Shown one piece after another: positions 7,407 to 28,137 of a stretch of 32,000 nucleotides of DNA. This DNA is from Candidatus Saccharimonadota bacterium (GTDB lineage Bacteria; Patescibacteriota; Saccharimonadia; Saccharimonadales; Saccharimonadaceae). Under the pieces are notes generated by a model. The model was not told the DNA's origin, searched no databases, and saw only the letters and a program-made list of their open reading frames with translations. The position numbers were made by a program, and so were the translations under genes. Where the stretch lies: assembly GCF_025273655.1 (NCBI RefSeq), contig NZ_CP045921.1, positions 840,001 through 872,000 on the forward strand. Direction: 5' to 3'. Position 1 is the first letter of the stretch, and every line of letters begins with the position of its first letter.

Positions 7407-7431
7407 CACGATTAAGATAAATATTAGCTGG

Positions 7432-7461
7432 GGGCACGGCAGATTACTATCCGCCGTGCCC
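7432..7461 (+). terminator. hairpin after pilin copy 1 (weak terminator candidate)
   Basis: gggcacggc / 12-nt loop / gccgtgccc, a 9-bp GC-rich stem with no clear T-tract after it. Confidence 0.35.
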
Positions 7462-7564
7462 TGTCTCAATTAAAATAGAGGTCGATTCATCAAAAATGGC
7501 ATTCTTATTAAATAAATTAAATATCGTGAACTCAGCAGCTGAAAATCTACAAAGACAGCCACAC

Positions 7565-10736: not shown

Positions 10737-10781
10737 CGTGAATCCTTATCTGTTAACTATATTTAGTATACACTATTGCGT

Positions 10782-10801
10782 TTATATCATTTATGATATA
10801 A
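10782..10801. promoter_or_regulatory. candidate operator: 9-bp perfect inverted repeat TTATATCAT-TT-ATGATATAA overlapping the -10 of the HTH-murA gene
   Basis: Read directly from the sequence. The right arm overlaps the extended -10 TGATATAAT (10794..10802), which lies 7 nt before ATG 10810. Confidence 0.4.
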
Positions 10802-10809
10802 TTATCTTT

Positions 10810-12339
10810 ATGAGTGTCGAAGAATACCGTGCAAAAATAGGTAACCTAATCCAAGAAACCCGTCTCGCGCGTGGTTTTACGCAGGCACAACTCGCCGAAG
10901 CGCTTGGCACTAGCCAGAGCGCCATCAACCGCATAGAGAAAGGCGGCCAAAACATCAGCGTCGAAATGATTGCGCGTATCAGCGACGTACTGTCGAGCAA
11001 CATCATGACAATCAACCATAGTGGCAAAATTAATTTTCGCGTTCACGGTGGACACAAGCTCAGCGGCTCCATCGTTACCAAAACTAGCAAGAATGCGGCC
11101 GTTGCCCTCCTCTGCGCCAGTCTGCTCAACCAAGGCAAGACTACACTGCGACGTGTTGCTCGCATCGAAGAAGTCAATCGCATCATAGAGGTTCTTCAGA
11201 GTATTGGTGTCAAGACACGCTGGGTAGGCGAAGACAACGATCTGGAAATCGTCCCGCCGAAGACTCTTAATCTCGCACATATCGACATAGAAGCCGCCAA
11301 ACGCACACGTTCTATCATCATGTTCCTTGGCCCGCTTCTTCACCAATACAGTGAGTTTGAGCTGCCATTTGCCGGTGGCTGCAATCTCGGCACCCGTACC
11401 GTCGAACCGCATATGACAGGTCTCGAACCTTTTGGCCTCTCTGTCACAGCGACAAACAGTGCCTACGTTGCTACATCGTCACCACATGCAGTTAATCGTA
11501 CTATTCTGCTCACCGAGCGTGGTGATACTGTTACCGAAAACGTCCTGATGGCAGCTGCACGATACGACGGTACTGTCACGATACGCAACGCCAGCCCTAA
11601 CTATATGGTGCAAGACCTTTGCTATTTCCTGCAAAAGCTTGGCGTACAGATAGAAGGCATCGGCACCACTACCCTGCGCGTTACCGGTGTAAGCAAAATC
11701 GATACAGACGTAGAGTACTTCCCCAGTGAAGATCCGATCGAAGCCATGAGCTTCATCGCAGCTGCTGCTGTGACTGATTCTGAGTTGACAGTAGAACGCG
11801 CACCGATCGAATTCCTAGAGATTGAGCTCGCCGTGCTCGCCGGCATGGGTCTGCAATATGAACTCAGCGAAGAATATACTGCCCGCAACGGCTTCACTCG
11901 TCTTGTTGACATCCGACTCAAGCATTCACAGCTTGTCGCGCCCAAAGACAAATTGCATAGCATGCCGTTTCCTGGCGTCAACATGGACAACCTACCGTTT
12001 CTCGGTCTCATCGCTACCATGGCAAAAGGTCGTACACTTGTGCACGACTGGAGCTATGAAAATAGGGCGATCTACTTTACCGAACTAAGCAAACTCAACG
12101 CGCAGATCGAACTTGTAGATCCGCACCGGGTCTACATCACCGGTCCCACTAAGTGGAAACATGCAGATGTTGTCGCACCGCCAGCTCTGCGCCCCTCGGT
12201 CGTAATTTTGCTTGCTATGCTCGCAGCCCCTGGTGTCTCAACACTTCGCGATGTCTACTCGATCAACCGTGGCTACGAAGAACTCGCTGGACGTCTCAAT
12301 AGCCTGGGTGCGCAGATCGATACTGTGCGAGAGATTTAG
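10810..12339 (+). CDS. murA: XRE-family helix-turn-helix domain fused to UDP-N-acetylglucosamine 1-carboxyvinyltransferase (MurA-like)
   Basis: The N-terminal ~65 aa (RLARGFTQAQLAEALGTSQSAINRIEKGGQNISVEMIARI) form an HTH_XRE domain. The remainder (FRVHGGHKLSGSIVTKTSKNAAVALLCASLL...FAGGCNLGTRTVEPH...) is colinear with MurA and includes the active-site Cys loop. The track start at 10720 was rejected because its hydrophobic, AT-rich extension runs across the promoter. Confidence 0.85.
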   Translation: MSVEEYRAKIGNLIQETRLARGFTQAQLAEALGTSQSAINRIEKGGQNISVEMIARISDVLSSNIMTINHSGKINFRVHGGHKLSGSIVTKTSKNAAVALLCASLLNQGKTTLRRVARIEEVNRIIEVLQSIGVKTRWVGEDNDLEIVPPKTLNLAHIDIEAAKRTRSIIMFLGPLLHQYSEFELPFAGGCNLGTRTVEPHMTGLEPFGLSVTATNSAYVATSSPHAVNRTILLTERGDTVTENVLMAAARYDGTVTIRNASPNYMVQDLCYFLQKLGVQIEGIGTTTLRVTGVSKIDTDVEYFPSEDPIEAMSFIAAAAVTDSELTVERAPIEFLEIELAVLAGMGLQYELSEEYTARNGFTRLVDIRLKHSQLVAPKDKLHSMPFPGVNMDNLPFLGLIATMAKGRTLVHDWSYENRAIYFTELSKLNAQIELVDPHRVYITGPTKWKHADVVAPPALRPSVVILLAMLAAPGVSTLRDVYSINRGYEELAGRLNSLGAQIDTVREI

Positions 12340-15253: not shown

Positions 15254-16234
15254 CTATAGCTTTTCCTGCCTCTGTTTGAGCCCATACGCCTGTTGCGTTA
15301 CTGCAAGCAACAAACCGCTATCGTCATAAAGCGCCTCGGTGTCATCCTCACCCATCACTACACCCACTATCGTCACCGGCTGGTTTTCAGCGGTAGTGTA
15401 CTTGGCTGCAAACATAAGACAGCTCCCAGCCTCACCCGTAGTACCAGTTTTGATACCAACCACGCCGTTACTACCTAGTAACTTATTGGTGTTTCTCACT
15501 TCTCCAATCCCCGGGATATCCACCTCTGCTTGACCCACGATACGCGCGATCACAGGACTCGCCAGCGCAGCGATACCAATACGCACCAGCTCCGACGGAG
15601 TACTCACTGTCTGCGGGCTCATACCACTCGCATCTGCCACCACGGTCTTGGTGAGACCCATATTCCGTAACATGGTCTGCGCGTACGATGCATACGCCTC
15701 TTGGGAGCCAAACGTCTTATCAATAAGTGTGTCCGCCATATTGTTTGCAGACACCATGAGCATCAGCTGTAGCGCTTCGAGCTGAGTCACCTCCATACCC
15801 TCATACACCGGCACTACGGACCCTCCTGCGGACATATCTTGAGTATAATGCGCAACATCGTGGGCAGTAAGTACGTACTTCTCGCCGGTCTGCCCGGACT
15901 GGATCGGTCGCTTCTTAAGAATGGCGAGTGCAGCGATTACCTTTGCCATACTGGCCGTGGGTTGTGACACTTCATCGCTAGCCGATCGAGCAATGATGCC
16001 ACTGCTAGTACTCCCTATTGCTGCCGACGCGGTCGCCGGCCACGCAAGCTCTACGTCATCGGCAAGCTGCACGGACGCTTCAGGCTTCTCGACAGAGACG
16101 GGTGCTCCACCGAGCAACGAAACATGCTGCGCAAACCCTAGCCCGACGATCACAACCAGCAATATGCCAATGATAGAGCCTGCGAGGACTCTACGGCGAT
16201 ATGCTTGCTTTCGTTGACTACTTTGCGTCTTCAC
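15254..16234 (-). CDS. D-alanyl-D-alanine carboxypeptidase (peptidase S11, PBP5/6-like), N-terminally membrane anchored
   Basis: SxxK (ASMAKV), SxN (VSANNM) and KTG (IKTGTT) motifs occur in the correct order and spacing. N-terminal TM segment LAGSIIGILLVVIVGLGF. GTG start 19 nt after the LOG stop. Confidence 0.85.
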   Translation of the reverse strand: MKTQSSQRKQAYRRRVLAGSIIGILLVVIVGLGFAQHVSLLGGAPVSVEKPEASVQLADDVELAWPATASAAIGSTSSGIIARSASDEVSQPTASMAKVIAALAILKKRPIQSGQTGEKYVLTAHDVAHYTQDMSAGGSVVPVYEGMEVTQLEALQLMLMVSANNMADTLIDKTFGSQEAYASYAQTMLRNMGLTKTVVADASGMSPQTVSTPSELVRIGIAALASPVIARIVGQAEVDIPGIGEVRNTNKLLGSNGVVGIKTGTTGEAGSCLMFAAKYTTAENQPVTIVGVVMGEDDTEALYDDSGLLLAVTQQAYGLKQRQEKL

Positions 16235-16914: not shown

Positions 16915-18519
16915 GTGAACCAAGACTCTCAGCTGAATCAGCTCGGCGCCCAGCTCGTTGATTCGCTCACCCGTATCGACGCGTACGAATCAGACGTACT
17001 TGCTCGTCGTGACAAAGAAACAATCCACATCCCCACGGTTGGCAGCAAGCTCTCAACAGCATATGAGCAGCTCCGTAATGCCTCCGAATACGCCGAAGAC
17101 AACCTGTTGCGCCAGCGTGCTATTCGCCGTTATCTTCGCCGCGTTCTGTCGTTTCATGAACATATCGGCACCAAGCCTTTTGCCGAAGAACTCGTCACCG
17201 AACTTACCCAGTCTGAATATCTACCAAATGATCACATTACTAAAAGCGACCTCAAGGCAATCTCTGAGCACATCAAGCACTACTACGGTGCATATTGGCA
17301 GTACGTCAAAATCGAATCAAGCAGCGGCAAACGTCTGCGCTTTCAGGGATGGATGCTTGACGTTCTGAGTGTTCGCTGTGAACAAGTACTGCAAAGCAAT
17401 ATCCGCCAGCTATCGTTTACACACTTTGCCTACACTTATCTGCAACCAAAACTGAGCGTCAAAAAGCTCGTGCGCAGCGGCGAGTCGATTGATGAGCAAG
17501 ACTATTCACTTGTACTCTATATCGCCATTCAGCGGGCCATCCTCAAATCAGACAGTGCCTCGATTCGCGCCGCGCTCATCGATAGCTATCGCCAAGATAT
17601 TGGTCTCATCCACAATTTTGAAGCGTTCAATGCGAAGTTTGATCAGCTCTACGATAGCAAGACAGTCGCCTACACTAGCCGCATTGTGAGTCGCAACGGT
17701 GCCACGCTCCGCATGCTCTACACAGGATTTTATACACATGACGCGCCGATCTCTCCGCAGGCGTTCAAAACAGAAGATAGCCTAGAATATGCCTTACGCC
17801 AGCACGTCGAGAAAGAATACGATGACCTAAACAAGCGTCTCGACAAAGGCATTCTGCGCAGTATCGCATTCCTACTTATCACCAAAAGCATCATTGGCCT
17901 CGGCGTCGAGGTACCCTACGATCTGTTTGTCGAAGGACACATTCTGTGGATGCCACTTGTTATCAATCTCTTCTTCCCGGCCGTCTTCATCGCCATTTCC
18001 CGCCTCACCCTTTCTACGCCAACTGGTCGCAATACCGACGCAATCATCGCCCATACCCGCCACATTTTGTACGAAGACCTCAGCGAAAACTCTGCTTCAT
18101 ATGCCATTCGTACCCCTCGCGCGACACCATCGGTCGGATTCAACCTCCTATATGCAGTCATGTTCATACTCGTATTTGGAGCACTCTCATATATACTCTT
18201 CCAACTCAAATTCAACATTGTACAAGGTATCATCTTCTTCGTTTTCTTGTCGACAGCTAGTTTTCTGGCATTTCGCTTATCCAACCAAATCCGCGAAATC
18301 GAAGAAGTCCATCTCTCGCAGGGATCACTTGCACTACTGCGTGATATCCTATACATGCCGTTTATCTACGTCGGACAACAAATTTCATTCCGTTATAGCA
18401 AGATTAATATTGTTGCCAACATCCTCGACATCTTGATCGAGCTACCCCTTAAGACCGTCTTGCGTCTCGCACGTCAGTGGACACAATTCCTCAACAGCAA
18501 AAAAGACGAATTGATCTAG
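16915..18519 (+). CDS. hypothetical membrane protein (about 320-aa soluble N-terminal region plus about 4 C-terminal TM helices)
   Basis: Long ORF with a GTG start and no in-frame ATG nearby. Hydrophobic segments include IAFLLITKSIIGLGV, ILWMPLVINLFFPAVFIAI, LLYAVMFILVFGALSYILF and IIFFVFLSTASFLAF. No family recognised. Confidence 0.6.
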   Translation: MNQDSQLNQLGAQLVDSLTRIDAYESDVLARRDKETIHIPTVGSKLSTAYEQLRNASEYAEDNLLRQRAIRRYLRRVLSFHEHIGTKPFAEELVTELTQSEYLPNDHITKSDLKAISEHIKHYYGAYWQYVKIESSSGKRLRFQGWMLDVLSVRCEQVLQSNIRQLSFTHFAYTYLQPKLSVKKLVRSGESIDEQDYSLVLYIAIQRAILKSDSASIRAALIDSYRQDIGLIHNFEAFNAKFDQLYDSKTVAYTSRIVSRNGATLRMLYTGFYTHDAPISPQAFKTEDSLEYALRQHVEKEYDDLNKRLDKGILRSIAFLLITKSIIGLGVEVPYDLFVEGHILWMPLVINLFFPAVFIAISRLTLSTPTGRNTDAIIAHTRHILYEDLSENSASYAIRTPRATPSVGFNLLYAVMFILVFGALSYILFQLKFNIVQGIIFFVFLSTASFLAFRLSNQIREIEEVHLSQGSLALLRDILYMPFIYVGQQISFRYSKINIVANILDILIELPLKTVLRLARQWTQFLNSKKDELI

Positions 18520-18525
18520 GGGAGA

Positions 18526-21231
18526 CTAGCTCGAAGCTTTAAAGATGATGTTGTTAGTGGTGTAGAAGTCATCATGGCTATTCGGAATCGTGTCCTCATC
18601 CCAGCATTGGCGCGAACCAGACATACTCGCGAGCACCGCGCATGCCATCGTATAGCCACGGAAATATTTCATCATTTCGCTACTGTCATCCATGCATTTT
18701 TTGCCCGTATACCACTCTTGGTCAGCCGTACTGCCCCAGCCCAGCGCATAGTAACTTTCTGGCTTTTCTTCATCATCCGGTTTCTCGCGTAAGCCACTAC
18801 GGTTATCCGAAGTACGGCGCCCCTTCTCGTCGACTGGGTCTTCAGCATATTTGGGATCCTGTTCATCCACCGCCATGCCAATACCACCCCAGGGATCTTG
18901 GCGATTAACACAATATTGCATAAATTTGGCATATTCGGTGTACTTGTTCGGCTTGCCTGTCGCAGGGTCAACATACGCTGCTGCTGCACCGTCCCGTGCT
19001 TGCTTTTTCATACGCTCGCCGCGCTCTGGGTCTGCACTTGTATCACGCGCATTTACTTCGGAAAGTGACTTCTGGGCATTGTCTGGATGAGGTTTCGTCA
19101 TGTAGTCGAGGATTTCAGATATATCGAGGCTTAGCTCCTGGGGTGTCATAGAGTAACGTATATTACACGCAAAGTCTGGATTGATCTCTATATCGAGGTC
19201 GCCCTGAATACCGCATACTGTCGCAGGCTGCATACGCGTCACCTGAAAATGAGATGGCTGTGTATAGAGCGCACTGACGCCAGTCTGCAGGACACCATTA
19301 GCAGCAAGTGGCAACGACGAAAGTAGGGTCGACACACCTCCTTGCCAAGAACCAGATGGCAATGCGGTACCAGCCGGTGCAAATTTCGCTACCACACTCC
19401 CCACGAAGCTATAGGGATTTGTTGCGTCCCAAGGAGTGCTGCGCGCCGCAATTCGCTCCTCATTCTCCAGTTTCTCTTGTAATAGCTGCGCCTGGGTCAT
19501 ATATACAGTCATGCTGGCTATATTTGCCGGGCGCATGCCAAGTGACTGCGCCCTATCGCCTAGTAATGTACCCGTACCTGCAAAAATAATATTTTGCGCC
19601 TGTATACCAGTGGTGGACGCACTAAATCGCTGCGATTCAGCCTGTGCCGCAATTCGAATACGCTCGGGGAGTGTTGCCGTGGCTTCTGTTCGAGTAGCCG
19701 CTTTCACGAGCTCCACTACAGATTTCACAGATGCCGGGCACATGATACGCTCTATTAAGTCTTTGGCAGCCCCAATTACACCACCAGCTGCCACCCCAAT
19801 ATAGCTCGCAAGTGGCATCGACGCAGGTGACCAACACAAGCCACTTTGCTCGGTTGCCATCTGCGCACCGCTCATTCCCTCAGAACAGAGCCCGTGGGCA
19901 GTTCTATCACGAGCTCCGTTTTGGACAATATTGCTTGTCAGCGCTAGTTTCAGGTACTCTGTTCCTGGTACCGAAGGTGCGCCCGGCTTAAGGATCCCTA
20001 GCAGTAGCAATGGCGTCAATTCGGTCAATATCGTAGCCCGATCCTTGATCGACTCGCCAAGTGCAGGCACACGATAGGTGTCGGCGTCCATAGCATTTTT
20101 GCCATTAGAGTTTGCCTTTGTCAGTTTGTTCGCGAGCGACTCTACGGCAATTTCTCCGTCGATGGGGGAACCCGCCTTGAGGTCATCGGCTACAGCAAGA
20201 TAATTCATAGCATACCGAGCCGTCGACACGACTTTGGCTCGCGCCACAGCATTTTCTGCCAAGTTGCCGTAAGTAGCATATGAACAGGCCAGAGAAAGAT
20301 GAGTATTCGCCTTCGCTTCTAGATTGGTATAGATTTTTGTCCTCCACGAATTGGACATTTCACTCAAGCTCGCAAGACTATAGATTCCCCGTCCATTTTC
20401 ATCGATTGCGTCCTGTGTATCTTGCGCATTTGTAGCTGCATTTTCCACATCGTCACTGAAGTCATTGTATCGGGGATCGCCGTGCGCAACGCGTTCGTCA
20501 AACGCTGCATCAAACTTCTCTACCGTATCTCCATGGAGCGTATTGTCTTGCTCAATACCAAACTTACTGAGCAGACGATCAAAGAACTGCCTGTCCTGAT
20601 AAATACCCGTGCGCGAACTATAGACTTTGTTCATCAGATCATCGGCACTATGATTATTCTTGCGTACTGCGTTAAGTGTCGTCGCATCAACCGCCGCACC
20701 CCCGCCATTTGGAAAAATCAGCGAGGATACATTGTAGCGCTTATTTGTCGCCTGGCTTGAAGTCAGGATAAATCCATAGCGTTCAAATCGTTCCTTGAGC
20801 ATAGGGCTCATAGTTTGGAATTTACATTTGATTGTCTTTTCACCGCAGCCTGCGCCGAGCTGTCCACCCAATACTTTGTTGGAATACGTATAGTACGCAT
20901 AGAGGCCGTCATTGAGATCGTTGGTCAATTGCTCTTTGTCATTGATCAGTAATACCATGGGTGAAATAAACAGTATACCAGTCACTGCCAAAATAAACAC
21001 AGCACAGACAAAGAGGACTGAACTCACATGCCCAGTATGAACTTTTTCGGTATAGTGAGTTTCGGTATCGACGTGCGTCTTCTTCTCGACCTCTTCCTTA
21101 TGAGTAACAGTCGTAGTACCACCGGTACCACTTGACTCAAGTCGTTTAAGCATAGACTGTGACTCACTCAAATCTCCCGTATCGTCCCGGTTGGCAGACG
21201 AGTTGTTGAGCTGCTGGTTGTTTTCCGGCAT
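18526..21231 (-). CDS. large N-terminally anchored extracytoplasmic protein (4th gene of the Clp-like membrane operon)
   Basis: 901 aa from ATG 21231 (TTG 21234 is also possible). About 70 charged N-terminal residues are followed by one TM segment (VSSVLFVCAVFILAVTGILFISPMVLL) and an ~800-aa domain with several Cys. The start overlaps the upstream stop (TGATG). No family recognised. Confidence 0.7.
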   Translation of the reverse strand: MPENNQQLNNSSANRDDTGDLSESQSMLKRLESSGTGGTTTVTHKEEVEKKTHVDTETHYTEKVHTGHVSSVLFVCAVFILAVTGILFISPMVLLINDKEQLTNDLNDGLYAYYTYSNKVLGGQLGAGCGEKTIKCKFQTMSPMLKERFERYGFILTSSQATNKRYNVSSLIFPNGGGAAVDATTLNAVRKNNHSADDLMNKVYSSRTGIYQDRQFFDRLLSKFGIEQDNTLHGDTVEKFDAAFDERVAHGDPRYNDFSDDVENAATNAQDTQDAIDENGRGIYSLASLSEMSNSWRTKIYTNLEAKANTHLSLACSYATYGNLAENAVARAKVVSTARYAMNYLAVADDLKAGSPIDGEIAVESLANKLTKANSNGKNAMDADTYRVPALGESIKDRATILTELTPLLLLGILKPGAPSVPGTEYLKLALTSNIVQNGARDRTAHGLCSEGMSGAQMATEQSGLCWSPASMPLASYIGVAAGGVIGAAKDLIERIMCPASVKSVVELVKAATRTEATATLPERIRIAAQAESQRFSASTTGIQAQNIIFAGTGTLLGDRAQSLGMRPANIASMTVYMTQAQLLQEKLENEERIAARSTPWDATNPYSFVGSVVAKFAPAGTALPSGSWQGGVSTLLSSLPLAANGVLQTGVSALYTQPSHFQVTRMQPATVCGIQGDLDIEINPDFACNIRYSMTPQELSLDISEILDYMTKPHPDNAQKSLSEVNARDTSADPERGERMKKQARDGAAAAYVDPATGKPNKYTEYAKFMQYCVNRQDPWGGIGMAVDEQDPKYAEDPVDEKGRRTSDNRSGLREKPDDEEKPESYYALGWGSTADQEWYTGKKCMDDSSEMMKYFRGYTMACAVLASMSGSRQCWDEDTIPNSHDDFYTTNNIIFKASS

Positions 21232-23234
21232 CAATGTAACCGTACGTCACCTGACATTACATCACTATCACTCGGGGTTTTTGGTATGAGACCCGCTTCA
21301 CGCATATCTTCTTGTTGGGCAAGTGCGTCTTGTGCCCCCGCCACATATTTCGCTGCACGAGTTTTTGCAAGCAGTTCATTACTGTTTTGAGAAGGCCGAC
21401 GTGGCGCGAAACCAGTACCACTAGCCAGTTGTGCATCACCTGTGCCGCCAGAGGATGGCTGTGCAGCTTGCACGATAATCGTCGCACCCCCCGTACTCGC
21501 TTGTGTGGCACCTCCTCCAGTAGATGGCGCAACCGTCATCGCTGACGCTGTCACACCACCAGTTGTCGGAGCGTGATAAGGGTCAGGTGGAGGCGTCTGA
21601 GCGTTACCTCCGGAAGACTTACCATCACGGTTGAGAGAGCTAATACCAGCTGCTTTCTTATCTTTCTCGTCGGACTGACTATCTTTGCTGCCCTTCTGCT
21701 GTTCTGCTCCGGGCGTTGATGCAACACCTACACCCTTGCCGAGGCTCTCAAGCAAAAATGCTTCCGATGCCTTGAGCTCGATTCCTTCGTAGCTATTGAT
21801 ATTCACACCGTCACTTCCAGCATCCCCATTCATACGATCCTGATAGCGCTGCAGCGCCTGTGAATACAGCTCCTGAGGTGAGCGACCAGCTTCCGAGCCG
21901 CCTCGTAGCTCACTGAGACGTTGCTGCACCTGCGAGTCAAACCTAGCTTGTTCGGGAGTTTTTGTCTGATGTTTGCCTCTTCCTCGATACGCCCCACCGA
22001 CACGTCCAAATATTGACGCATTGCTTTCACCATCTTTGGCAACGTTCAGCTGCTGCAAACGATTAATACCCCTGAGCATCATAGACTTTTTGTTCATATC
22101 CATAGCGGTCTGCTCACGCTTCTTGGCTTTTTCGTCACGCTCACGCGAACTACGGCGTAACCCATCACGCGACACGCGAGCACCAGCTGCATCGATAGCA
22201 TTTGTCGCGGCCTTGAAAGCATACCACGTTCCCACCAGTGGCAGTACCGCAGCTCCCGCAGCTACAAGATAAAGCGTTGCGCTCTGCTGGCCTGCAGGCT
22301 TAAGCGCGATTGTGTCGTTGTCAACCTGATAATCACTTCCGCCAGCCTTGATAATAGATGCGCTCACAATCTGACCCGCACCTATAAGAAAAGAGATGAT
22401 TGGAAACAGTAATAACATATGCAAAAACAACTTGAGCCACCTAGAGAAGTAATCTGACGTATTAGGTAGTAGATAAGCGAAAAAGGCAAGTGGCGCCAGT
22501 AAAATTAGCATCACCACTAACGCCTTGCGTACGATAAGCACGATAATCAGTGCAGAACAAATCACAGTCGCAGACATTACAACAGCAGTCAGAGGTGCGA
22601 GTAGCACCCAAGCAACTTCATTTTTCGAAATCACCCCAGACGTAATATCGGCAAGTGGGCTGACATCATATGTACCAGGGGAACTTGCGAGCGGCATAGC
22701 GGAGGCACCGATGTTCTTGGCAACACCGTCTACCAAAAGTTGCTGTATACCTACACCTAACAAATTCGATAGATCAACCATGATCTGACAGATATAGTAA
22801 GACAGGTTAACAAAAATAACCGCAAGTATGAAGCGCGGCACCAAACGCTTAAGGTTATAATTGCCGATACCACGCCCAGTAATCAGGGCATATACGATAT
22901 AGAGAAACGCGATTACAAATAGCACGTTGGCAATCGTGCGCATGATAGCGCCCGCCTGTGCGGCACCACTTTGCGTATTGTAAAACGACACTTCTACCTT
23001 CAAGAAGTTTTGAGATACAAACGTAAACGCATAGTCGCCCGCGACAGAAGTCGCGCGCAGTACTGGGCAAATAATCCAGCCCATGTTGTCATAAGCACAG
23101 GTCGAGACCGATCCTTGGCTCAGTAGCGATGGGATTCCGGTAGTAGAGACAGCTCTCGCTGTGCCCCCAACAAGGCTTACAGCCAGTACAACGGTAATCA
23201 GCCCGGCAACGATGAGACTCCAGAGCCGTTTCAT
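21231..23234 (-). CDS. polytopic membrane protein (about 7 TM) with an ~320-aa low-complexity C-terminal tail (3rd gene of operon)
   Basis: Signal-like N-terminus MKRLWSLIVAGLITVVLAVSLVGGTARA, multiple hydrophobic helices up to about aa 340, then a K/R/E- and G/S/T/P/Q-rich tail. GGAGG lies 8 nt upstream. An ATGA overlap links it to the Clp-like gene. The topology is reminiscent of VirB6/TrbL, but I cannot verify that. Confidence 0.7.
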   Translation of the reverse strand: MKRLWSLIVAGLITVVLAVSLVGGTARAVSTTGIPSLLSQGSVSTCAYDNMGWIICPVLRATSVAGDYAFTFVSQNFLKVEVSFYNTQSGAAQAGAIMRTIANVLFVIAFLYIVYALITGRGIGNYNLKRLVPRFILAVIFVNLSYYICQIMVDLSNLLGVGIQQLLVDGVAKNIGASAMPLASSPGTYDVSPLADITSGVISKNEVAWVLLAPLTAVVMSATVICSALIIVLIVRKALVVMLILLAPLAFFAYLLPNTSDYFSRWLKLFLHMLLLFPIISFLIGAGQIVSASIIKAGGSDYQVDNDTIALKPAGQQSATLYLVAAGAAVLPLVGTWYAFKAATNAIDAAGARVSRDGLRRSSRERDEKAKKREQTAMDMNKKSMMLRGINRLQQLNVAKDGESNASIFGRVGGAYRGRGKHQTKTPEQARFDSQVQQRLSELRGGSEAGRSPQELYSQALQRYQDRMNGDAGSDGVNINSYEGIELKASEAFLLESLGKGVGVASTPGAEQQKGSKDSQSDEKDKKAAGISSLNRDGKSSGGNAQTPPPDPYHAPTTGGVTASAMTVAPSTGGGATQASTGGATIIVQAAQPSSGGTGDAQLASGTGFAPRRPSQNSNELLAKTRAAKYVAGAQDALAQQEDMREAGLIPKTPSDSDVMSGDVRLH

Positions 23235-25684
23235 TCCCTTGCCTCCACACTTGCCTCGGCTACGATTGCATTTGCCGCCACTTCAGCACCAAGCACGCCC
23301 TGCACTTGCTCGAGCGTAATATACATAGTCGTACCCGGTGTGACGTTGCCCCCCAACATTTCTTTTGCGACGGTGTTTTCTATTGCTCGCTGGACAACGC
23401 GGCGCATCGGCCTGGCGCCCAGCCTAGGATCGTAGCCTTTATCTACTAAATATAGTTTAGCATCTTCTGTTACATCTACCGAAACTTTTTGCAGCGCCAG
23501 CGTCTTGTTAACACCTGCTATCATGAGGTTGATCACTTGTACTAGTTCTGCTTTGCCGAGTGGTGTAAATGTCACGATCTCATCGAAACGGTTGAGGAAC
23601 TCAGGGCGGAATTGATTGCTACTAATTAGCTCATCGATAAACTGCGGCTCGAACTGTTCTAATTGCTCGCCTTTCTCGATATGCTCACGTATACGATCAG
23701 CCCCCGCATTACTTGTAGCAATTACGATTGCATCGCGAAAACTCACTTCACGGTTGCGTACATCTCGCAGTATACCCTCATCCAACAGCTGCAAAAGTGT
23801 CGTTAAAACGTTTGGATGTGCTTTCTCAATTTCATCAAGTAAAACAACGCTAAACGGTTGCTTCATCACTTGGGCAGTCAGGCTATTTGGATCATCGGCC
23901 CCATCCGCAATCAAGCGATTCACATCTTCCAGCGTAACGTATTCGTTCAGATCGAGACGAATCATGCGATCTTCTCCGCCAAAATACACATCCGCGAGCG
24001 CTTTTGCGAGCTCCGTCTTACCTACACCCGTAGGCCCAAGAAACAGAAAAGTACCGATTGGTCGATCTTGATTGCGTACACCTGCCCTAGCCCTGCGAAG
24101 TGCATCACTCACCACTTGCACAGCACGTTTCTGATTGATCATGCGTTCATGGATCTTATCCTCGAGATTGAGCAATGTCTCGCGCTCGGCTGCGACGTCG
24201 GCAGTCCCTACTTTCACATTCATCGTCTGTTCGATAGCCTGTTGCACGGAGTTCATCGTCACAAATTTACCGCTCTCAGCATAACTTGCAGCCGTCTCAA
24301 GTAGTTTAAGGGCGCGCCCAGGCATCTCAAGATCATGTATGTATCGTTCGCTCAGCCGATATGCTTCCGCAAGTGACTGATACATGTATGTGACCTTACG
24401 CTTGTACTCCGTCATGATTAGTTGATCTTGCATCACAGCAACTGTTTCATCTCTACTGGCAGGTGCAAGTATGATGCGATTGAGTGCGTTTACTAACCCA
24501 GGGTTACGTTGTGCTATCTGCAGTAGACGCTGCTCGTCCATTGTGAGTATAATGCGGAGATTACCTGCCTCGAGTATTGGCAGTAACACATTCGTGAGAT
24601 CAACAGATCCAACACCCTCTTCAAAAAATAGCTGTGCATTGTCCAGACAAATAATGATATTTTTAGCTCGGTACGCCTCTGTAAGTACGCGCATTATTAG
24701 TCCTTCGAGCTCGCCGCGACCTGGAGCTGCCGAAATAAGTGCAGAAGAGTCCATCAGAAATACCTGGCGAAATTTGAGACTCGATGGCACCTGTGCATCG
24801 GCGTCAAGTAAGCGTTCCGCAAATGCGTGCAATAGCGTAGTTTTACCTACGCCTTCGGACCCCACAATTGCCGCGTTTTGACGTCCGCCACCACTCATCG
24901 CCTCTACAAGCTGATCGAGTGCCCGCAGGTGACTATCGAGCTCCACAGTAAACACGCCGCCGCCTTCACTAAGATTGACGCCAAAACGTTTAAGGAGAGG
25001 TACATAGCCAAACGACCAATCGCGCGCAATACCACCAGTACGGCGAGGCTTCGCCTGCTGCCCAATCAACTCTTGAATATGATCGTACCAGCGAATACCA
25101 GCAATGAGATCATCGAGCTCGAGATGCATTTGCGCCAGTAGTATGTCGTGATCAGCAAATTGTCGAATCAATGCTACAGCAACTATACCACCGTGGAGAA
25201 TCGGACTTCCTGTCTGCAGTTGAATATCTCGGGCGTCCACCCATATATCATCACTGCGCTTCACGTCGTCGCTTGCTATATTGAGCAGAAAATTGGCCGT
25301 TACACCAAAACGGACAGCCATAAATTGCCCAGCCTGAGACTTACCTATTAGCTCAGCGATTTGTGCCGGCGTTGCGCCCTCTGACAGCCCTGCTAGAATT
25401 GATGCCTCTAGCCATGCATCTACCGCTTCTCTATTGCTATCGGGCGGGAGATTTTTGAGCTCACCGGCATGCCATTCGACAAGCATCGCCGGGATAGCCG
25501 CAAGTCCGAATACAAACCAACCTATCGGTACGCCTAAAAACACCAATGCACAGCCACTAACACCGAGCACCAAAGTAGCGACCTTGAGCAGCGCAACAAT
25601 TTGAAATGTGAGTAACTTGCCAAAGCGCGCCTTGGCACGCCGCTCACTCGTGAGATTGAGCTCTAAAACTGCCATGGTATCCAT
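23231..25684 (-). CDS. membrane-anchored ClpA/ClpB-family double AAA+ ATPase, divergent (2nd gene of operon)
   Basis: Two N-terminal hydrophobic helices (LLTFQIVALLKVATLVLGVSGCALVFLGV, IGWFVFGLAAIPAML). D1 Walker A is GSEGVGKT. D2 carries FLFLGPTGVGKTELAKALA, VVLLDEIEKAHPNV, ATSNAG, RPEFLNRFDEIV and GARPMRR. The start was moved from 26023 to ATG 25684 (or 25675), because the track's N-terminal 113 aa overlap the real upstream gene in another frame. Confidence 0.85.
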   Translation of the reverse strand: MDTMAVLELNLTSERRAKARFGKLLTFQIVALLKVATLVLGVSGCALVFLGVPIGWFVFGLAAIPAMLVEWHAGELKNLPPDSNREAVDAWLEASILAGLSEGATPAQIAELIGKSQAGQFMAVRFGVTANFLLNIASDDVKRSDDIWVDARDIQLQTGSPILHGGIVAVALIRQFADHDILLAQMHLELDDLIAGIRWYDHIQELIGQQAKPRRTGGIARDWSFGYVPLLKRFGVNLSEGGGVFTVELDSHLRALDQLVEAMSGGGRQNAAIVGSEGVGKTTLLHAFAERLLDADAQVPSSLKFRQVFLMDSSALISAAPGRGELEGLIMRVLTEAYRAKNIIICLDNAQLFFEEGVGSVDLTNVLLPILEAGNLRIILTMDEQRLLQIAQRNPGLVNALNRIILAPASRDETVAVMQDQLIMTEYKRKVTYMYQSLAEAYRLSERYIHDLEMPGRALKLLETAASYAESGKFVTMNSVQQAIEQTMNVKVGTADVAAERETLLNLEDKIHERMINQKRAVQVVSDALRRARAGVRNQDRPIGTFLFLGPTGVGKTELAKALADVYFGGEDRMIRLDLNEYVTLEDVNRLIADGADDPNSLTAQVMKQPFSVVLLDEIEKAHPNVLTTLLQLLDEGILRDVRNREVSFRDAIVIATSNAGADRIREHIEKGEQLEQFEPQFIDELISSNQFRPEFLNRFDEIVTFTPLGKAELVQVINLMIAGVNKTLALQKVSVDVTEDAKLYLVDKGYDPRLGARPMRRVVQRAIENTVAKEMLGGNVTPGTTMYITLEQVQGVLGAEVAANAIVAEASVEARE

Positions 25685-26046
25685 CCTGCCGTCATAAGTA
25701 CGAACCCGGTGATAGGTAGCACTGGTACAATTGCCCATACCGCTAGTACGCAGACGCCCAAAAGTGCTTGGAGCGTAATCGTAACAAGGCCCATCACCAG
25801 CACCGTGCTGCGAATCATTGCACCAATAACGCGTGAGATCATGCGTCCCGCCCACGCCTGTACTTTCACTGACAGTGGACCATCTACCGAGCCAGCCCCA
25901 TCTTGGCGAAACAACGCAAACATTGTCCGTAGGAGCAGACCTATGGAGAAATAATCCATTGTACTTTCGAGTCGGGTCATCGTCATACGGGCGCGCTGTT
26001 GCCAGCCTATCGTATACCACCACCTCAGTAGGCCCACTATAAACAT
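25663..26046 (-). CDS. small integral membrane protein, 127 aa (1st gene of operon)
   Basis: Hydrophobic segments VIGAMIRSTVLVMGLVTITLQALLGVCVLAVWAIVPVLPITGFVLM. The stop overlaps the Clp-like start. TATAAT lies 6 nt upstream of the ATG. Confidence 0.6.
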   Translation of the reverse strand: MFIVGLLRWWYTIGWQQRARMTMTRLESTMDYFSIGLLLRTMFALFRQDGAGSVDGPLSVKVQAWAGRMISRVIGAMIRSTVLVMGLVTITLQALLGVCVLAVWAIVPVLPITGFVLMTAGWIPWQF

Positions 26047-26140: not shown

Positions 26141-27412
26141 ATGGTTCGACCTCATATCGCTACTATTGGCAAAGTAGTCCGACAAGTCACTCGCCTGCGT
26201 GGTGGTGGCTCGGCCTTTCCTGGTCTCGTTATCGAAAAAATCGATCCTCGCTTCACCCGCGATGTACTCGCTAGCCTTCCATATGGCGTTGTCATCATCA
26301 GTGGCACCAATGGCAAGACCACTACCACAAAGATGACCGTCGAACTCCTCGAAAGCCAAGGGTTCCGCGTCTTTACTAATCGCACGGGGAGCAATTTCTC
26401 GCGTGGTGTCACCGCTGCTATACTCGGCGAGATCGATTACAAAGGTACGCTCAATGCTGACATCGCGGTGCTTGAGCTAGACGAAGCCCATGCAGTCAAA
26501 TTTGTGGATATCATCCCACCTCGCTATAGTTTGCTGCTCAATGTTATGCGCGACCAACTCGATCGCTTCGGCGAAATCGATACCACTGCCCGCATGCTTG
26601 AGCATATTGCCCAGGCCACCACTCATACAGTCGTGCTCAACCGCGAAGACCCACGCATCGCCCCTATCGGTGACTCACTTACCGCTCGCACCCAAGCAGA
26701 GTACTTCGGTCTTAGCGACGAGCTACGCCCCAAGTTTCCATCCGACGACGACATGCGCTCCAGTACAAAAGCAATTGATGCACGCGATGCCGATGTCATC
26801 CTGACAAACTTCGACGGTAACACCGCCTCGTTCCATTTCGACAACCGTGACATAGCTGTACCGCTCAAACTCCGCGGCATCTACAATATCTACAACGCAG
26901 CAGCGGCACTCACCCTCACGCGTACCATTGCTGCCGAACGTTACAACAAGAAGGCCCTACTCGAAGCCCTTGGCAACGTCGTGCCAGCCTTTGGCCGCGG
27001 TGAGACGGTCATGCTTGACGGCCAACCTGTCGAGCTGGTACTCGTCAAAAACCCTAGCGGCTTCCGTCTAGCCCTTGAGTCATTCTCGCCAGATGGCTAC
27101 GCAACCATGATCGCCATCAACGACAATTATGCCGATGGTCGTGATATGAGTTGGCTCTGGGATGTCGATTTTGACAGCCTTCGACCAGCAGGTGTTGCAC
27201 ACGTGAGCGGCGTCCGCGCCTACGACATGGCCCTTCGCCTTCAGTATGACGATGTCGAAACAGCACATGTCGACACCGACATACCAGCAGCACTGCGAGC
27301 TTTTTGCGCTGAGCATGCCGATTCACCAAAACGCATCTACTGCACCTATACCGCCATGCTTCGCCTGCGCGAGCTACTGAGCCGCATGACCCAAGTGGAG
27401 AAAATATTATGA
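26141..27412 (+). CDS. murT: lipid II isoglutaminyl synthase, Mur-ligase-like subunit
   Basis: Contains the GTNGKTTT P-loop, a Mur ligase central domain and the C-terminal DUF1727 signature DNYADGRDMSWLWDVDF. An ATGA overlap links it to the downstream amidotransferase. Confidence 0.85.
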   Translation: MVRPHIATIGKVVRQVTRLRGGGSAFPGLVIEKIDPRFTRDVLASLPYGVVIISGTNGKTTTTKMTVELLESQGFRVFTNRTGSNFSRGVTAAILGEIDYKGTLNADIAVLELDEAHAVKFVDIIPPRYSLLLNVMRDQLDRFGEIDTTARMLEHIAQATTHTVVLNREDPRIAPIGDSLTARTQAEYFGLSDELRPKFPSDDDMRSSTKAIDARDADVILTNFDGNTASFHFDNRDIAVPLKLRGIYNIYNAAAALTLTRTIAAERYNKKALLEALGNVVPAFGRGETVMLDGQPVELVLVKNPSGFRLALESFSPDGYATMIAINDNYADGRDMSWLWDVDFDSLRPAGVAHVSGVRAYDMALRLQYDDVETAHVDTDIPAALRAFCAEHADSPKRIYCTYTAMLRLRELLSRMTQVEKIL

Positions 27413-28137
27413 CCCAACCCGAACACACCCTCACTATCGTACAGCTCTACCCAGACGACATGAACATCTATGGCGACTGGGGTAACGTGCTCACTGTCAT
27501 GAAACGTGCAGAATGGCACGGCCTCTCGCCCTCGCTCATCAACTACAATGTTGGCGATGAATTCCCTGCCGAGGCGGATATTATCATCGGTGGCGGTGGT
27601 CAAGACAGCGGTCAGCTCAAAGTTCAGGCGGATTTGCAGCAGATCGCACCGCGCCTGCGCGAGTTTGCAGATGCCGATACGCCTATGCTCATGATCTGCG
27701 GACTCTACCAGCTGTTCGGCAGGTTCTTCAAGACAAGCAAAGGTGAAATCATACAAGGTATCGACATCTTCCATGCCGAAACGCATGGCGGCCCGGAGCG
27801 CTTGATCGGCAATATCGTCACTACCAGCGAAGAGTTCGGCGAAATCATCGGCTACGAAAACCACAGCGGTCAGACATTCATTGACAGCGACATGCAACCG
27901 CTAGGCCGTGTCCGTCAGGGCGCTGGCAACAATGGCCAAGATGACACCGAAGGCTGCATCTACCGCAATGTCATCGGCACATATCTGCACGGATCACTGC
28001 TGCCCAAAAACCCGGCCATCGCAGATGGTCTCATACAAGAAGCCGCCAAGAAGAAATACCCCGACTTCACACTCAATATCCTTGAAGATCGCTTCGCTAC
28101 GAAAGCTCGTGAAATCGCGCTCAAGCGACCACGATAG
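27409..28137 (+). CDS. gatD: lipid II isoglutaminyl synthase, glutamine amidotransferase subunit (CobB/CobQ-like GATase)
   Basis: YPDDMNIYGDWGN, the nucleophile context MICGLYQLFG and YLHGSLLPKNP are present. Translationally coupled to murT. Confidence 0.85.
   Translation: MTQPEHTLTIVQLYPDDMNIYGDWGNVLTVMKRAEWHGLSPSLINYNVGDEFPAEADIIIGGGGQDSGQLKVQADLQQIAPRLREFADADTPMLMICGLYQLFGRFFKTSKGEIIQGIDIFHAETHGGPERLIGNIVTTSEEFGEIIGYENHSGQTFIDSDMQPLGRVRQGAGNNGQDDTEGCIYRNVIGTYLHGSLLPKNPAIADGLIQEAAKKKYPDFTLNILEDRFATKAREIALKRPR

What the first reader, a model, noticed from the sequence alone, without database searches (positions are those of the whole stretch)
23231..25684. The Clp-like ATPase lacks both pore-loop tyrosines and the D1 Walker-B glutamate and arginine finger
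These comparisons come from aligning by eye against the ClpB/ClpC sequences I remember.
- The D1 pore loop (AGxKYRGEFEER in ClpB/ClpC) reads ISAAPGRGELEGL, so Tyr is replaced by Gly.
- D1 Walker B (ILFIDEIH) reads IIICLDNAQ, so Glu is replaced by Asn.
- The D1 arginine-finger segment (ALERRFQ) reads LVNALNRI.
- The D2 pore-loop block (RLIGAPPGYVGYEEGGQLT) is shortened to RLIADGADDPNSLT, so the GYVG tyrosine is deleted.
- D2 Walker A/B (GPTGVGKT, LLDEIEKAH), sensor and GARPMRR motifs are intact.
- There is no long coiled-coil M-domain between D1 and D2, and I see no IGF/IGL ClpP-docking tripeptide.
- The N-terminus carries two TM helices before a possibly Clp_N-like region.

Established knowledge: the pore-loop tyrosines drive substrate threading in Hsp100 unfoldases.

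Inference: this protein probably hydrolyses ATP only in D2 and does not thread substrates in the canonical way. It would then be a mechanistically unusual, membrane-bound Hsp100 derivative.
Basis: partly seen in the sequence, partly recalled or inferred. Interest (0 to 1): 0.7.

Follow-up and report, generated by a model that had tools for sequence, protein, structure and literature searches.

The report
Membrane-anchored Clp ATPase without pore tyrosines
A Saccharibacteria gene encodes a membrane-anchored relative of the ClpA/B/C protein-unfolding motors that has lost the substrate-gripping tyrosines of both rings and the catalytic residues of its first ring. This state is strictly conserved, and the gene is always paired with a small unknown membrane protein, so it looks like an uncharacterised kind of Hsp100 machine.

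Summary
- D1 pore loop KYR is PGR.
- D1 Walker B DE is DN.
- The D1 RR finger is NA.
- The D2 GYVG loop is shortened by 5 residues.
- There is no M-domain and no ClpP-docking loop.
- D2 catalytic motifs are intact.

An N-terminal TM hairpin and a diverged Clp_N-like fold are supported by hydropathy and AlphaFold2/Foldseek.

These are not decay. The altered motifs are near-invariant in 201 Saccharibacteria orthologues. All 84 full-length distant representatives (25-51% identity) also lack both tyrosines and keep D2 perfect.

New findings:
- A 127-aa membrane protein gene overlaps the start codon in 79/80 Saccharibacteria loci and in 5/5 distant loci.
- That partner is fused to the ATPase in six representatives.
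- The orthologue in Southlakia epibionticum (SEML1_0700) and its partner (SEML1_0701) share a Tn-seq call of non-essential with a late growth defect. A canonical ClpC and ClpP exist elsewhere in that genome.
- The VirB6-like gene downstream is clade-specific.

Verdict: an uncharacterised two-component membrane AAA+ machine, probably driven by D2 only and not threading. It is a new variant of Hsp100. The function is inferred, not shown.

The parts
23231..25684 (-). Clp/Hsp100-derived tandem AAA+ ATPase, 817 aa (alternative start Met4 at 25675)
   Evidence: Pfam AAA_2 1.6e-44, ClpB_D2-small 2.7e-22, AAA_lid_9, and weak AAA hits over D1. PDB ClpB/ClpC matches at about 5e-100. Foldseek top hits are ClpC/ClpB/ClpA.
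25663..26046 (-). 127-aa membrane protein, the obligate partner. Its stop codon overlaps the ATPase start.
   Evidence: Present directly upstream in 79/80 Saccharibacteria loci and in 5/5 distant loci (HMM E 3e-15 to 1e-44). Fused to the N-terminus of six long representatives. No Pfam or NCBIfam family.
25457..25606 (-). Transmembrane helical hairpin (residues 27-76)
   Evidence: Hydropathy. AF2 helices 27-49 and 54-76, pLDDT around 90.
25055..25405 (-). Diverged Clp_N-like eight-helix N-domain (residues 94-210)
   Evidence: AF2 model of residues 1-215, pLDDT 88.5. Foldseek PDB hits are nearly all Clp/Hsp100 N-domains, probability up to 0.99 but E 0.2-2. No Pfam Clp_N hit.
24983..25039 (-). 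Family-signature linker motif TGGIARDWSFGYVPLLKRF (consensus GGIGRDWxxGYTPxL)
   Evidence: W223 is present in 79/84 distant representatives, and position 227 is aromatic in 81/84. No equivalent conserved motif in my recollection of ClpA/B/C; the Tth ClpB reference used here begins after this segment, so the comparison was not tested.
24839..24862 (-). D1 Walker A GSEGVGKT (intact)
   Evidence: GxxGxGK[TS] in 199-200 of 201 orthologues.
24701..24736 (-). D1 pore loop-1 ISAAPGRGELEG (Tyr replaced by Gly322)
   Evidence: Alignment to ClpB/ClpC. P321 in 200/201 and G322 in 199/201 orthologues. No aromatic residue in 79/84 distant representatives.
24632..24658 (-). D1 Walker B IIICLDNAQ (catalytic Glu replaced by Asn349)
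   Evidence: N in 195/201 and D in 6/201 orthologues, never E.
24473..24499 (-). D1 arginine-finger segment GLVNALNRI (RR replaced by N399-A400; invariant R403 lies 3 residues later)
24014..24037 (-). D2 Walker A GPTGVGKT
   Evidence: 201/201 orthologues and 84/84 distant representatives.
23867..23920 (-). D2 pore loop-1 NRLIADGADDPNSLTAQV, 5 residues shorter than in ClpB, GYVG absent, acidic
   Evidence: RLIADGA.DP.SLT is near-invariant. In the wider family the loop varies in length and sequence, with no aromatic residue in 79/84.
23816..23848 (-). D2 Walker B VVLLDEIEKAH
   Evidence: D617 and E618 are invariant in 84/84 distant representatives.
23573..23611 (-). D2 arginine-finger segment FRPEFLNRFDEIV
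   Evidence: R699 is invariant in 84/84.
23324..23560 (-). ClpB_D2-small domain, including sensor-2 GARPMRR (23390-23419)
   Evidence: Pfam 2.7e-22. R758 in 84/84.
21231..23234 (-). TrbL/VirB6-like polytopic membrane protein. Its start overlaps the ATPase stop (ATGA). Clade-specific neighbour, not a core part of the module.
   Evidence: Pfam TrbL 4.4e-7, 30.3 bits against a cutoff of 25.9. Found downstream in only 8/80 loci.

Best explanation
The gene encodes the motor subunit of a two-component, membrane-embedded AAA+ machine derived from class-I Hsp100 (ClpA/B/C) proteins.

Shown by the analysis:
- A TM hairpin (N-in/C-in) holds a diverged Clp_N-like domain and two cytoplasmic AAA+ modules at the membrane.
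- The architecture is ClpA-like: no M-domain and no ClpP-docking loop.
- D2 retains every catalytic motif.
- D1 keeps Walker A GKT and the Walker B Asp. It lacks the catalytic Glu, both arginine fingers and the pore tyrosine, yet it is as strongly conserved as D2.
- The D2 tyrosine loop is deleted.
- A 127-aa membrane protein encoded by the overlapping upstream gene always accompanies the ATPase and is fused to it in some lineages.

Inferred:
- D1 acts as an ATP-binding but essentially non-hydrolysing assembly or regulatory ring, like NSF-D2 or Pex1/6-D1.
- D2 is the only motor.
- Without aromatic pore loops and without ClpP, the machine does not processively thread polypeptides. Instead it converts D2 ATP cycles into conformational work on its small membrane partner, or on a membrane-proximal client held by the N-domain and the GGIGRDWxxGY linker. 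This is a Torsin-like remodelling or switch mechanism.
- The likely arena is the cell envelope or membrane.

It is a specialised paralogue that works alongside a canonical ClpC/ClpP system.
For: Motif register against solved ClpB and ClpC.

Conservation:
- The altered D1 and D2 motifs are near-invariant in 201 orthologues of 60-99% identity. Column entropy of the D1 core is 0.3-0.55, equal to that of D2.
- Of 84 full-length representatives at 25-51% identity, none has the ClpB-type Tyr at the D1 position, 79 have no aromatic residue in either pore loop-1, and at most 3-4 of 84 carry K/R at either D1 finger position. All 84 keep D2 Walker A/B, sensor-1, finger and sensor-2. Nearly all have a hydrophobic N-terminus.

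No ClpP loop or tripeptide. No M-domain.

TM hairpin and Clp_N-like fold.

Partner gene:
- Overlaps the ATPase start in 79/80 Saccharibacteria loci.
- Present in 5/5 distant loci.
- Rosetta-stone fusions in P0201, P0239, P0204, P0221, P0209 and P0210 (E 2e-12 to 7e-23).

Tn-seq in S. epibionticum (PMC10633639, Table S1):
- SEML1_0700 and its 384-nt neighbour SEML1_0701 have the same call, NE/NE/GD.
- A canonical ClpC with a double Clp-N and a UVR domain (listed in Table S2, most likely SEML1_0512) and ClpP (SEML1_0493) exist separately.

Torsins are the precedent for a Clp-related, membrane-associated AAA+ without aromatic pore loops that is thought not to thread (PMC5425593).
Against: - No biochemical or structural data exist for any family member.
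- Hexamer geometry could not be modelled, because only monomer AlphaFold2 was available and no coordinates were returned.
- The HCLR pre-sensor-1 hairpin of D2 (GILRDVRNREVSF) is retained and also lines the channel, so some form of translocation is not excluded.
- 13/84 distant representatives keep Glu at the D1 Walker B position, so D1 inactivity may not be universal.
- A conserved basic residue at position 403 (R in 200/201 orthologues, K/R in 52/84 representatives) might act as a displaced finger.
- The envelope link rests only on neighbourhood: MurT-GatD is divergent in 77/80 Saccharibacteria loci, and an S11 DD-carboxypeptidase lies nearby in two distant loci. This could simply reflect conserved gene order.
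Confidence: 0.55

Rival explanations
1. It is still a threading unfoldase or membrane-protein extractor, FtsH/Msp1-like but without a protease. It would grip substrates with non-canonical elements: the retained D2 pre-sensor-1 hairpin, R323 in the D1 loop, or the conserved Trp/Tyr collar of the GGIGRDWxxGY linker.
For: - D2 is a perfect Hsp100 motor.
- The protein sits at the membrane next to a small TM protein that could be a client-delivery or pore subunit.
- W223 and Y227 are family-wide invariant aromatic residues of unknown role.
Against: - Pore loop-1 aromatic residues are the conserved and critical threading element of Clp/Hsp100 (PMC5425593).
- In the wider family the D2 loop is variable in length (4-14 residues) and sequence. 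That is not expected for a substrate-gripping element.
- Alternative aromatic positions F353/F354 are generic hydrophobic core positions (V in ClpB; F/L/I/V across the family).
Confidence: 0.2
2. It is an accessory ATPase or chaperone of the Patescibacteria type IV secretion system. For example, it could stand in for the missing coupling protein and act on the VirB6-like protein encoded immediately downstream.
For: - In this window the ATPase stop overlaps the start (ATGA) of a TrbL/VirB6-family gene (Pfam 4.4e-7). That gene is followed by a 902-aa single-TM protein.
- The Saccharibacteria T4SS lacks recognisable coupling and relaxase proteins (PMC10633639).
Against: - The VirB6-like and 902-aa pair follows the ATPase in only 8/80 Saccharibacteria loci. 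Elsewhere the next gene lies on the opposite strand.
- No T4SS genes flank the five distant loci examined.
- In S. epibionticum the T4SS cluster (SEML1_0006-0019) lies elsewhere and most of its genes are called essential, whereas SEML1_0700 and SEML1_0701 are NE/NE/GD.
- The T4SS survey PMC12102498 never mentions a Clp or AAA partner.
Confidence: 0.08
3. It is a decaying or inactive Hsp100 paralogue, a pseudo-enzyme relic, in a reduced genome.
For: Several catalytic and pore motifs are lost. The gene is non-essential in co-culture.
Against: - Very strong purifying selection acts on exactly the altered segments, on all of D2 and on the whole D1 core.
- The family is retained across 381 species-level genome loci and in a wider set of distant representatives.
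- Mutants show a late growth defect.
Confidence: 0.03
4. [quoted passage not shown]
For: Source annotations. A ClpP gene exists in Saccharibacteria.
Against: - The ClpP-docking loop is deleted and no [ILVM]G[FL] tripeptide exists.
- Both pore tyrosines are absent.
- A canonical ClpC with double Clp-N and UVR domains is present separately.
- NCBIfam scores are far below every Clp equivalog cutoff: ClpB 396 against 1232, ClpA 347 against 993.
Confidence: 0.02

Closest known systems
ClpA / ClpC / ClpB (class-I Hsp100, HCLR-clade AAA+)
   Same: - The layout is N-domain, then D1, then D2.
- It has AAA_lid_9 and ClpB_D2-small lids.
- D2 is about 45-50% identical to ClpB/ClpC D2 and carries all catalytic motifs and the pre-sensor-1 hairpin.
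- Like ClpA it has no M-domain. Like ClpB it has no ClpP loop.
- The fold matches with E around 1e-44.
   Different: - It has an N-terminal TM hairpin.
- The Clp_N domain is too diverged for Pfam to detect.
- There is no Tyr in either pore loop-1, and the D2 loop is shortened.
- D1 lacks the Walker B Glu and both arginine fingers.
- It has a family-specific GGIGRDWxxGYTP linker motif.
- It has an obligate small membrane partner.
- It scores far below all NCBIfam Clp equivalog cutoffs.
Torsins (TorsinA with LAP1/LULL1)
   Same: Torsins are AAA+ proteins related to Clp/Hsp100. They are membrane-associated, lack aromatic pore loops, work with a membrane-protein cofactor, and are considered unlikely to thread substrates (PMC5425593).
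   Different: - Torsins have a single AAA+ module and reside in the eukaryotic ER lumen.
- They lack their own arginine finger, which the cofactor supplies.
- Here the active ring (D2) has its own finger. The partner is a 127-aa TM protein with no AAA-like fold detected.
- This is a resemblance in how it may work, not membership.
Type-II AAA+ proteins with one non-catalytic ring (NSF D2, Pex1/Pex6 D1)
   Same: One ring binds nucleotide but is catalytically crippled and serves for assembly. The other ring does the work. This comparison rests on established knowledge and was not tested here.
   Different: Those proteins belong to the classical AAA clade and keep aromatic pore loops in the active ring. 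None is a membrane-integral Hsp100.
Plant SMAX1/D53 (SMXL) Hsp100-like proteins
   Same: These are Hsp100-derived double-ring proteins that have been repurposed away from unfolding. SMAX1 appears as a weak PDB hit (9kkx, 2e-8).
   Different: They are soluble eukaryotic transcriptional co-repressors with degenerate ATPase sites. Here D2 is fully intact.

Membership tests
Class-I Hsp100/Clp (ClpA/B/C) | Tandem AAA+ modules with AAA_lid_9 and ClpB_D2-small lids | tested here: met
   Pfam AAA_2 1.6e-44, ClpB_D2-small 2.7e-22 and AAA_lid_9 5.9e-7. Foldseek to ClpC at 1e-44.
Class-I Hsp100/Clp (ClpA/B/C) | Double-repeat Clp_N N-terminal domain | tested here: inconclusive
   No Pfam Clp_N hit even at E<=10. 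The AF2 eight-helix domain hits almost only Clp N-domains in PDB, with probability up to 0.99 but E 0.2-2 and TM-score about 0.45.
Class-I Hsp100/Clp (ClpA/B/C) | Aromatic pore loop-1 in D1 (KYR) and in D2 (GYVG) | tested here: not met
   D1 has PGR, and the D2 loop is deleted by 5 residues. This holds in 199-201 of 201 orthologues and 79/84 distant representatives.
Class-I Hsp100/Clp (ClpA/B/C) | Catalytically competent D1 (Walker B DE and RR fingers) | tested here: not met
   DN at residues 348-349 and NA at residues 399-400.
Class-I Hsp100/Clp (ClpA/B/C) | Score above the NCBIfam equivalog cutoffs | tested here: not met
   ClpB 396.5 against 1232, ClpA 347 against 993, ClpV/TssH 259 against 885, ClpG 304 against 1900.
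ClpB/Hsp104 disaggregase | Coiled-coil M-domain inserted in the D1 small domain | tested here: not met
   ClpB residues 394-512 are skipped in the alignment. The AF2 model has only about 25 residues between the D1 lid and D2.
ClpA/ClpC/ClpE (ClpP partners) | ClpP-docking loop with an [ILV]G[FL] tripeptide in D2 | tested here: not met
   A 7-residue gap lies opposite ClpC RFAGFGG. No such tripeptide occurs anywhere in the protein.
Type IV secretion system component | Encoded within a T4SS cluster with VirB4 and sharing its phenotype | tested here: not met
   - No VirB4 was detected among the window ORFs of 150 aa or more that were scanned.
- A VirB6-like neighbour is present in 8/80 loci only.
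- Most Se T4SS genes are called essential, whereas the orthologue is NE/NE/GD.
Torsin | Single AAA+ ring lacking its own arginine finger, activated by a cofactor that supplies the finger | tested here: not met
   There are two rings, and D2 finger R699 is invariant. Torsin is an analogy only.
Anti-phage defence AAA+ (PADLOC DolB, PDC-M37B) | Full-length match and system partner genes | tested here: not met
   Only the D2 region (residues 424-669) matches, and the partner genes gave no PADLOC hit.

The most novel reading that the evidence does not exclude
Patescibacteria carry a lineage-wide, previously undescribed two-component membrane machine in which an Hsp100 motor has abandoned polypeptide threading. 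A nucleotide-locked D1 ring scaffolds a hexamer under a ring of about 24-30 TM helices, contributed by the ATPase and by its 125-aa partner. D2 hydrolysis is transmitted through the Clp_N-like domain and the invariant GGIGRDWxxGY collar to do mechanical work in or across the membrane. This could be remodelling of envelope or host-interface complexes of these epibionts. If so, it would be a bacterial counterpart of the Torsin problem in a genetically tractable organism.
Probability: 0.3. Interest if true: 0.8.

Novelty: new variant of a known kind. Interest (0 to 1): 0.6.

Why it matters
Aromatic pore loops are regarded as the universal working parts of Hsp100 unfoldases. Here a natural, strongly conserved, membrane-integral Hsp100 lacks them in both rings, keeps a perfect D2 motor and is always coupled to a small membrane protein. 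This shows that the scaffold has been repurposed for a different kind of work.

It offers a bacterial system for asking what pore-loop-less Clp-like ATPases do, which is the open question for Torsins. Saccharibacteria are now genetically tractable, so the question is testable.

The pair is conserved in ultrasmall epibionts with minimal genomes, so it may matter for their envelope or host-interface biology. Databases currently mislabel it as a ClpP-protease ATP-binding subunit (ClpC) or as a generic AAA ATPase.

Tried and rejected
- Pfam on residues 1-250 at E<=10 gave no Clp_N hit. The fold evidence had to come from AF2 and Foldseek.
- A third homologue search with an N-domain/linker profile returned only 10 fragments. 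Two cluster look-ups gave few names: one 'Patescibacteria group bacterium' and one 'bacterium ADurb.Bin212'. The claim that the family is Patescibacteria-wide is therefore only partly documented.
- I considered whether F353/F354 after D1 Walker B could be relocated pore aromatics. I rejected this because these positions are generic hydrophobic residues (V in ClpB; F/L/I/V across the family).
- I considered a T4SS role because of the VirB6-like neighbour. I rejected it as a core function on synteny and Tn-seq grounds.
- I considered a defence system. PADLOC hits cover only the generic D2 region.
- The 902-aa downstream protein has no Pfam, NCBIfam, PADLOC or PDB sequence match.
- Literature searches found no description of this family.

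Full report
**Observation**

The finding's coordinates correspond to an 817-aa ORF on the minus strand, window 23231-25684. The mechanical ORF list shows a longer 930-aa GTG ORF reaching 26023. Its extension overlaps, in another frame, a real 127-aa gene at 25663-26046, so it is an artefact. The start is either Met1 (25684) or Met4 (25675). Met4 has an AGGA eight bases upstream and matches the 814-aa, 99%-identical database protein P0001.

Pfam finds AAA_2 (1.6e-44, residues 541-703), ClpB_D2-small (709-787), AAA_lid_9 (411-501) and only generic, weak AAA hits over D1 (267-388). NCBIfam matches ClpB, ClpA, ClpG/K and ClpV models strongly, but all far below their curated cutoffs.

- D1 pore loop AGAKYRGEFE aligns to SAAPGRGELE.
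- D1 Walker B FIDELH aligns to CLDNAQ.
- D1 fingers ALERRFQ align to LVNALNR.
- D2 pore loop RLIGAPPGYVGYEEGGQLT aligns to RLIAD-----GADDPNSLT.
- D2 Walker A, Walker B, sensor-1, finger and sensor-2 are intact.

The ClpB M-domain (residues 394-512) has no counterpart, and ClpA aligns in one stretch. The ClpC segment carrying the ClpP loop (RFAGFGG) falls in a 7-residue gap, and no [ILVM]G[FL] tripeptide exists in the protein.

Hydropathy shows one continuous hydrophobic stretch at residues 21-70. AlphaFold2 with a 54-sequence alignment (pLDDT 76.5 for the full length, 88.5 for residues 1-215) resolves it into a helical hairpin at 27-49 and 54-76. An eight-helix domain follows at 94-210. Foldseek of the 1-215 model against the PDB returns almost exclusively Clp/Hsp100 N-domains: ClpC, ClpC1, ClpC2, ClpA, Hsp104 and Plasmodium HSP101. 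Probability reaches 0.99, but E-values are weak (0.2-2) and TM-score is about 0.45. Pfam Clp_N does not match.

**Organism and conservation**

The window comes from a Saccharibacteria (TM7, Patescibacteria) genome. The upstream 127-aa protein is 100% identical to a hypothetical protein of Candidatus Mycosynbacter amalyticus. A scan of species-representative genomes gave 381 loci encoding relatives. The best 80 are almost all Saccharibacteria/Saccharimonadales MAGs at 61-84% identity.

I aligned 201 orthologues. The altered motifs are not drifting. They are among the most conserved parts of the protein:
- AAPGRGELE, with P321 in 200/201 and G322 in 199/201.
- CLDNAQ, with N349 in 195/201, D in 6 and never E.
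- NALNRI.
- RLIADGA(D/E)DPxSLT.

D1 Walker A GxxGxGKT is intact. Column entropy of the D1 core (residues 301-400) is 0.3-0.55, the same as for D2. D1 is therefore under strong purifying selection in its non-catalytic state.

**A wider family**

An exhaustive phmmer search with residues 1-500 against 1.84 billion cluster representatives found 105 proteins at E<1e-30. I examined the 84 full-length ones, which are 25-51% identical:
- None has the ClpB-type Tyr at the D1 position, and 79 have no aromatic residue in either pore loop-1.
- At most 3-4 of 84 carry K/R at either D1 arginine-finger position.
- The residue after the D1 Walker B Asp is N, D, E or another residue, with E in 13.
- The D2 loop varies from 4 to 14 residues with no conserved sequence.
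- D2 Walker A Lys, Walker B Asp-Glu, sensor-1 Asn, the finger Arg and the sensor-2 Arg are invariant in 84/84.
- Nearly all have a strongly hydrophobic N-terminus.
- A motif absent from canonical Clp proteins, GGIGRDWxxGYTPxL, lies in the N-domain/D1 linker. W223 is present in 79/84 and position 227 is aromatic in 81/84.

Two representatives carry source names: 'Patescibacteria group bacterium' (P0268) and 'bacterium ADurb.Bin212' (P0215), both annotated as ClpC-type Clp protease subunits.

**The partner**

In 79/80 Saccharibacteria loci, a gene homologous to window 25663-26046 lies immediately upstream and overlaps the ATPase start. The same arrangement, a 120-128-aa gene with no Pfam match that usually overlaps the start, occurs in all five distant loci I retrieved (L081, L084, L086, L087, L088). 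All five proteins match an HMM of the Saccharibacteria partner (E 3e-15 to 1e-44). BLASTP gives 3e-16 for L081.

In six long representatives (853-897 aa), the partner HMM matches residues 3-120 of the ATPase itself (E 2e-12 to 7e-23). A long hydrophobic stretch and then the N-domain follow. These are gene fusions that preserve an even number of TM helices. This is strong evidence that the two proteins form one machine.

The partner has invariant W9, W10, Y11, G14, F33, S34, F43, R72, G75, W104 and P108. It has a roughly 70-residue polar N-terminal part and a C-terminal TM hairpin. It has no Pfam or NCBIfam family and 1195 homologues, essentially all unnamed or 'hypothetical'.

**Context and published data**

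MurT-GatD (lipid II isoglutaminyl synthase) is divergently adjacent in 77/80 Saccharibacteria loci and in L086. An S11 DD-carboxypeptidase lies within two genes in L081 and L084, and about 7 kb away in the window. This is a weak hint of an envelope role.

The TrbL/VirB6-like gene whose start overlaps the ATPase stop (ATGA), and the 902-aa protein after it, follow the ATPase in only 8/80 loci. Elsewhere the next gene is on the other strand.

Wang et al. 2023 (PMC10633639) give Tn-seq data for Southlakia epibionticum. By its position next to MurT (SEML1_0702) and GatD (SEML1_0703) and by its Pfam coordinates, the orthologue is SEML1_0700, annotated 'AAA family ATPase' and a core family. It and the 384-nt SEML1_0701 both carry the calls NE/NE/GD, meaning dispensable with a late growth defect. 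MurT is called essential from the first outgrowth point, GatD at the last, and most T4SS genes (SEML1_0006-0019, elsewhere in the genome) are essential. A canonical ClpC (double Clp-N plus UVR, most likely SEML1_0512) and ClpP (SEML1_0493) are present and non-essential.

The Patescibacteria T4SS survey (PMC12102498) never mentions a Clp or AAA partner. I found no paper describing this family.

**Mechanism**

Shown:
- Membrane anchoring with cytoplasmic rings.
- ClpA-like architecture without a ClpP loop.
- A fully competent D2.
- A D1 that can bind nucleotide (Walker A GKT, Walker B Asp) but lacks the catalytic Glu and the trans-acting arginines.
- Absence of the Tyr pore loops.
- Obligate coupling to a small membrane protein.

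Inferred:
- D1 is an ATP-binding, essentially non-hydrolysing assembly or regulatory ring, as in NSF-D2 or Pex1/6-D1. This comparison rests on established knowledge.
- D2 is the sole motor.
- Pore loop-1 aromatic residues are the conserved, critical threading element of Clp/Hsp100 (PMC5425593), and the D2 loop is not even conserved across the family. The machine therefore probably does not thread polypeptides processively.
- Instead it would use D2 cycles to remodel or switch its membrane partner or a membrane-proximal client. This is the logic proposed for Torsins, the other Clp-related, membrane-associated AAA+ proteins without aromatic pore loops.

I give this reading about 0.55.

The main rival (about 0.2) is non-canonical threading or extraction. 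That could use the retained pre-sensor-1 hairpin or the W223/Y227 collar. A T4SS accessory role (about 0.08), a decaying relic (about 0.03) and a ClpP partner (about 0.02) are disfavoured for the reasons above.

**Comparison and novelty**

By homology this is an Hsp100/Clp derivative. It fails several defining functional features of ClpA/B/C: pore tyrosines, a catalytic D1, an M-domain or a ClpP loop, and the equivalog cutoffs. It should not be filed as ClpA, ClpB, ClpC or ClpV.

It resembles Torsins and one-dead-ring type-II AAA+ proteins in how it may work, but it is not a member of either group. I rate it a new variant of a known kind. It is an uncharacterised, apparently Patescibacteria-centred family of membrane-integral, pore-loop-less Hsp100 derivatives with a dedicated small membrane subunit. 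[quoted passage not shown]

**Limits**

- There is no hexamer model and no access to model coordinates.
- Two fold libraries were unavailable.
- The taxonomic range of distant members is poorly documented.
- Function is entirely inferred.

Noticed in passing
window 16915-23234 (VirB6-like 21231-23234 (-), 902-aa ORF 18526-21234 (-), 534-aa ORF 16915-18519 (+)): This module follows the Clp-like gene only in the 8 closest loci (L001-L006, L022, L041). It comprises a TrbL/VirB6-family polytopic protein with a long Ser/Gly/Gln-rich tail, a 902-aa single-TM protein with no detectable family or PDB relative, and a convergent multi-TM 534-aa protein. It looks like a second, T4SS-cluster-independent VirB6 paralogue that is translationally coupled (ATGA) to the ATPase.
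   Followed up: partly
window 10720-12339 (+); also L086 11540-12418: A MurA-type enolpyruvyl transferase (EPSP_synthase family) is fused to an N-terminal XRE-type HTH_3 domain. The same fusion appears in a distant Saccharimonadia-like locus. It is an unusual combination of a DNA-binding domain and a cell-wall enzyme.
   Followed up: no
window 91-8020 (+): Two large RCC1-repeat (beta-propeller) proteins (91-1494 and 2735-5641) are interleaved with four ORFs carrying the type IV pilin N-methylation motif (1470-2036, 2014-2796, 6954-7406, 7496-8020). This is possibly a pilus-associated adhesin cluster. MurB lies between them at 5851-6873.
   Followed up: no
window 25663-26046 (-) and 25675/25684: The upstream 127-aa protein is 100% identical to a hypothetical protein of Candidatus Mycosynbacter amalyticus (P0278), which identifies the source organism or a very close relative. 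The ATPase start is ambiguous between Met1 and Met4. Met4 has the better Shine-Dalgarno spacing and matches the 814-aa P0001.
   Followed up: partly
L081 3986-5260, L084 2318-3223, window 15254-16234 (-): An S11 DD-carboxypeptidase gene recurs near the partner/ATPase module in two distant loci and lies about 7 kb away in the window. Together with the conserved divergent MurT-GatD pair (window 26141-28137), this hints at a peptidoglycan or envelope connection. It could also be coincidental synteny.
   Followed up: partly
L011 (DATJIC010000036.1) and L077 (JBLMYW010000081.1): Contigs deposited as Verrucomicrobiia and Acidobacteriota MAGs carry the typical Saccharibacteria MurT-GatD / partner / ATPase locus at 64-68% identity. 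This probably reflects binning contamination in those MAGs.
   Followed up: no
window 23231-25684 (-), residues 424-669: PADLOC models DolB (9e-30) and PDC-M37B (5e-23) match the D2 module only. Single-ring ClpB-D2-like ATPases occur in candidate defence systems. I found nothing to link this locus to defence.
   Followed up: partly
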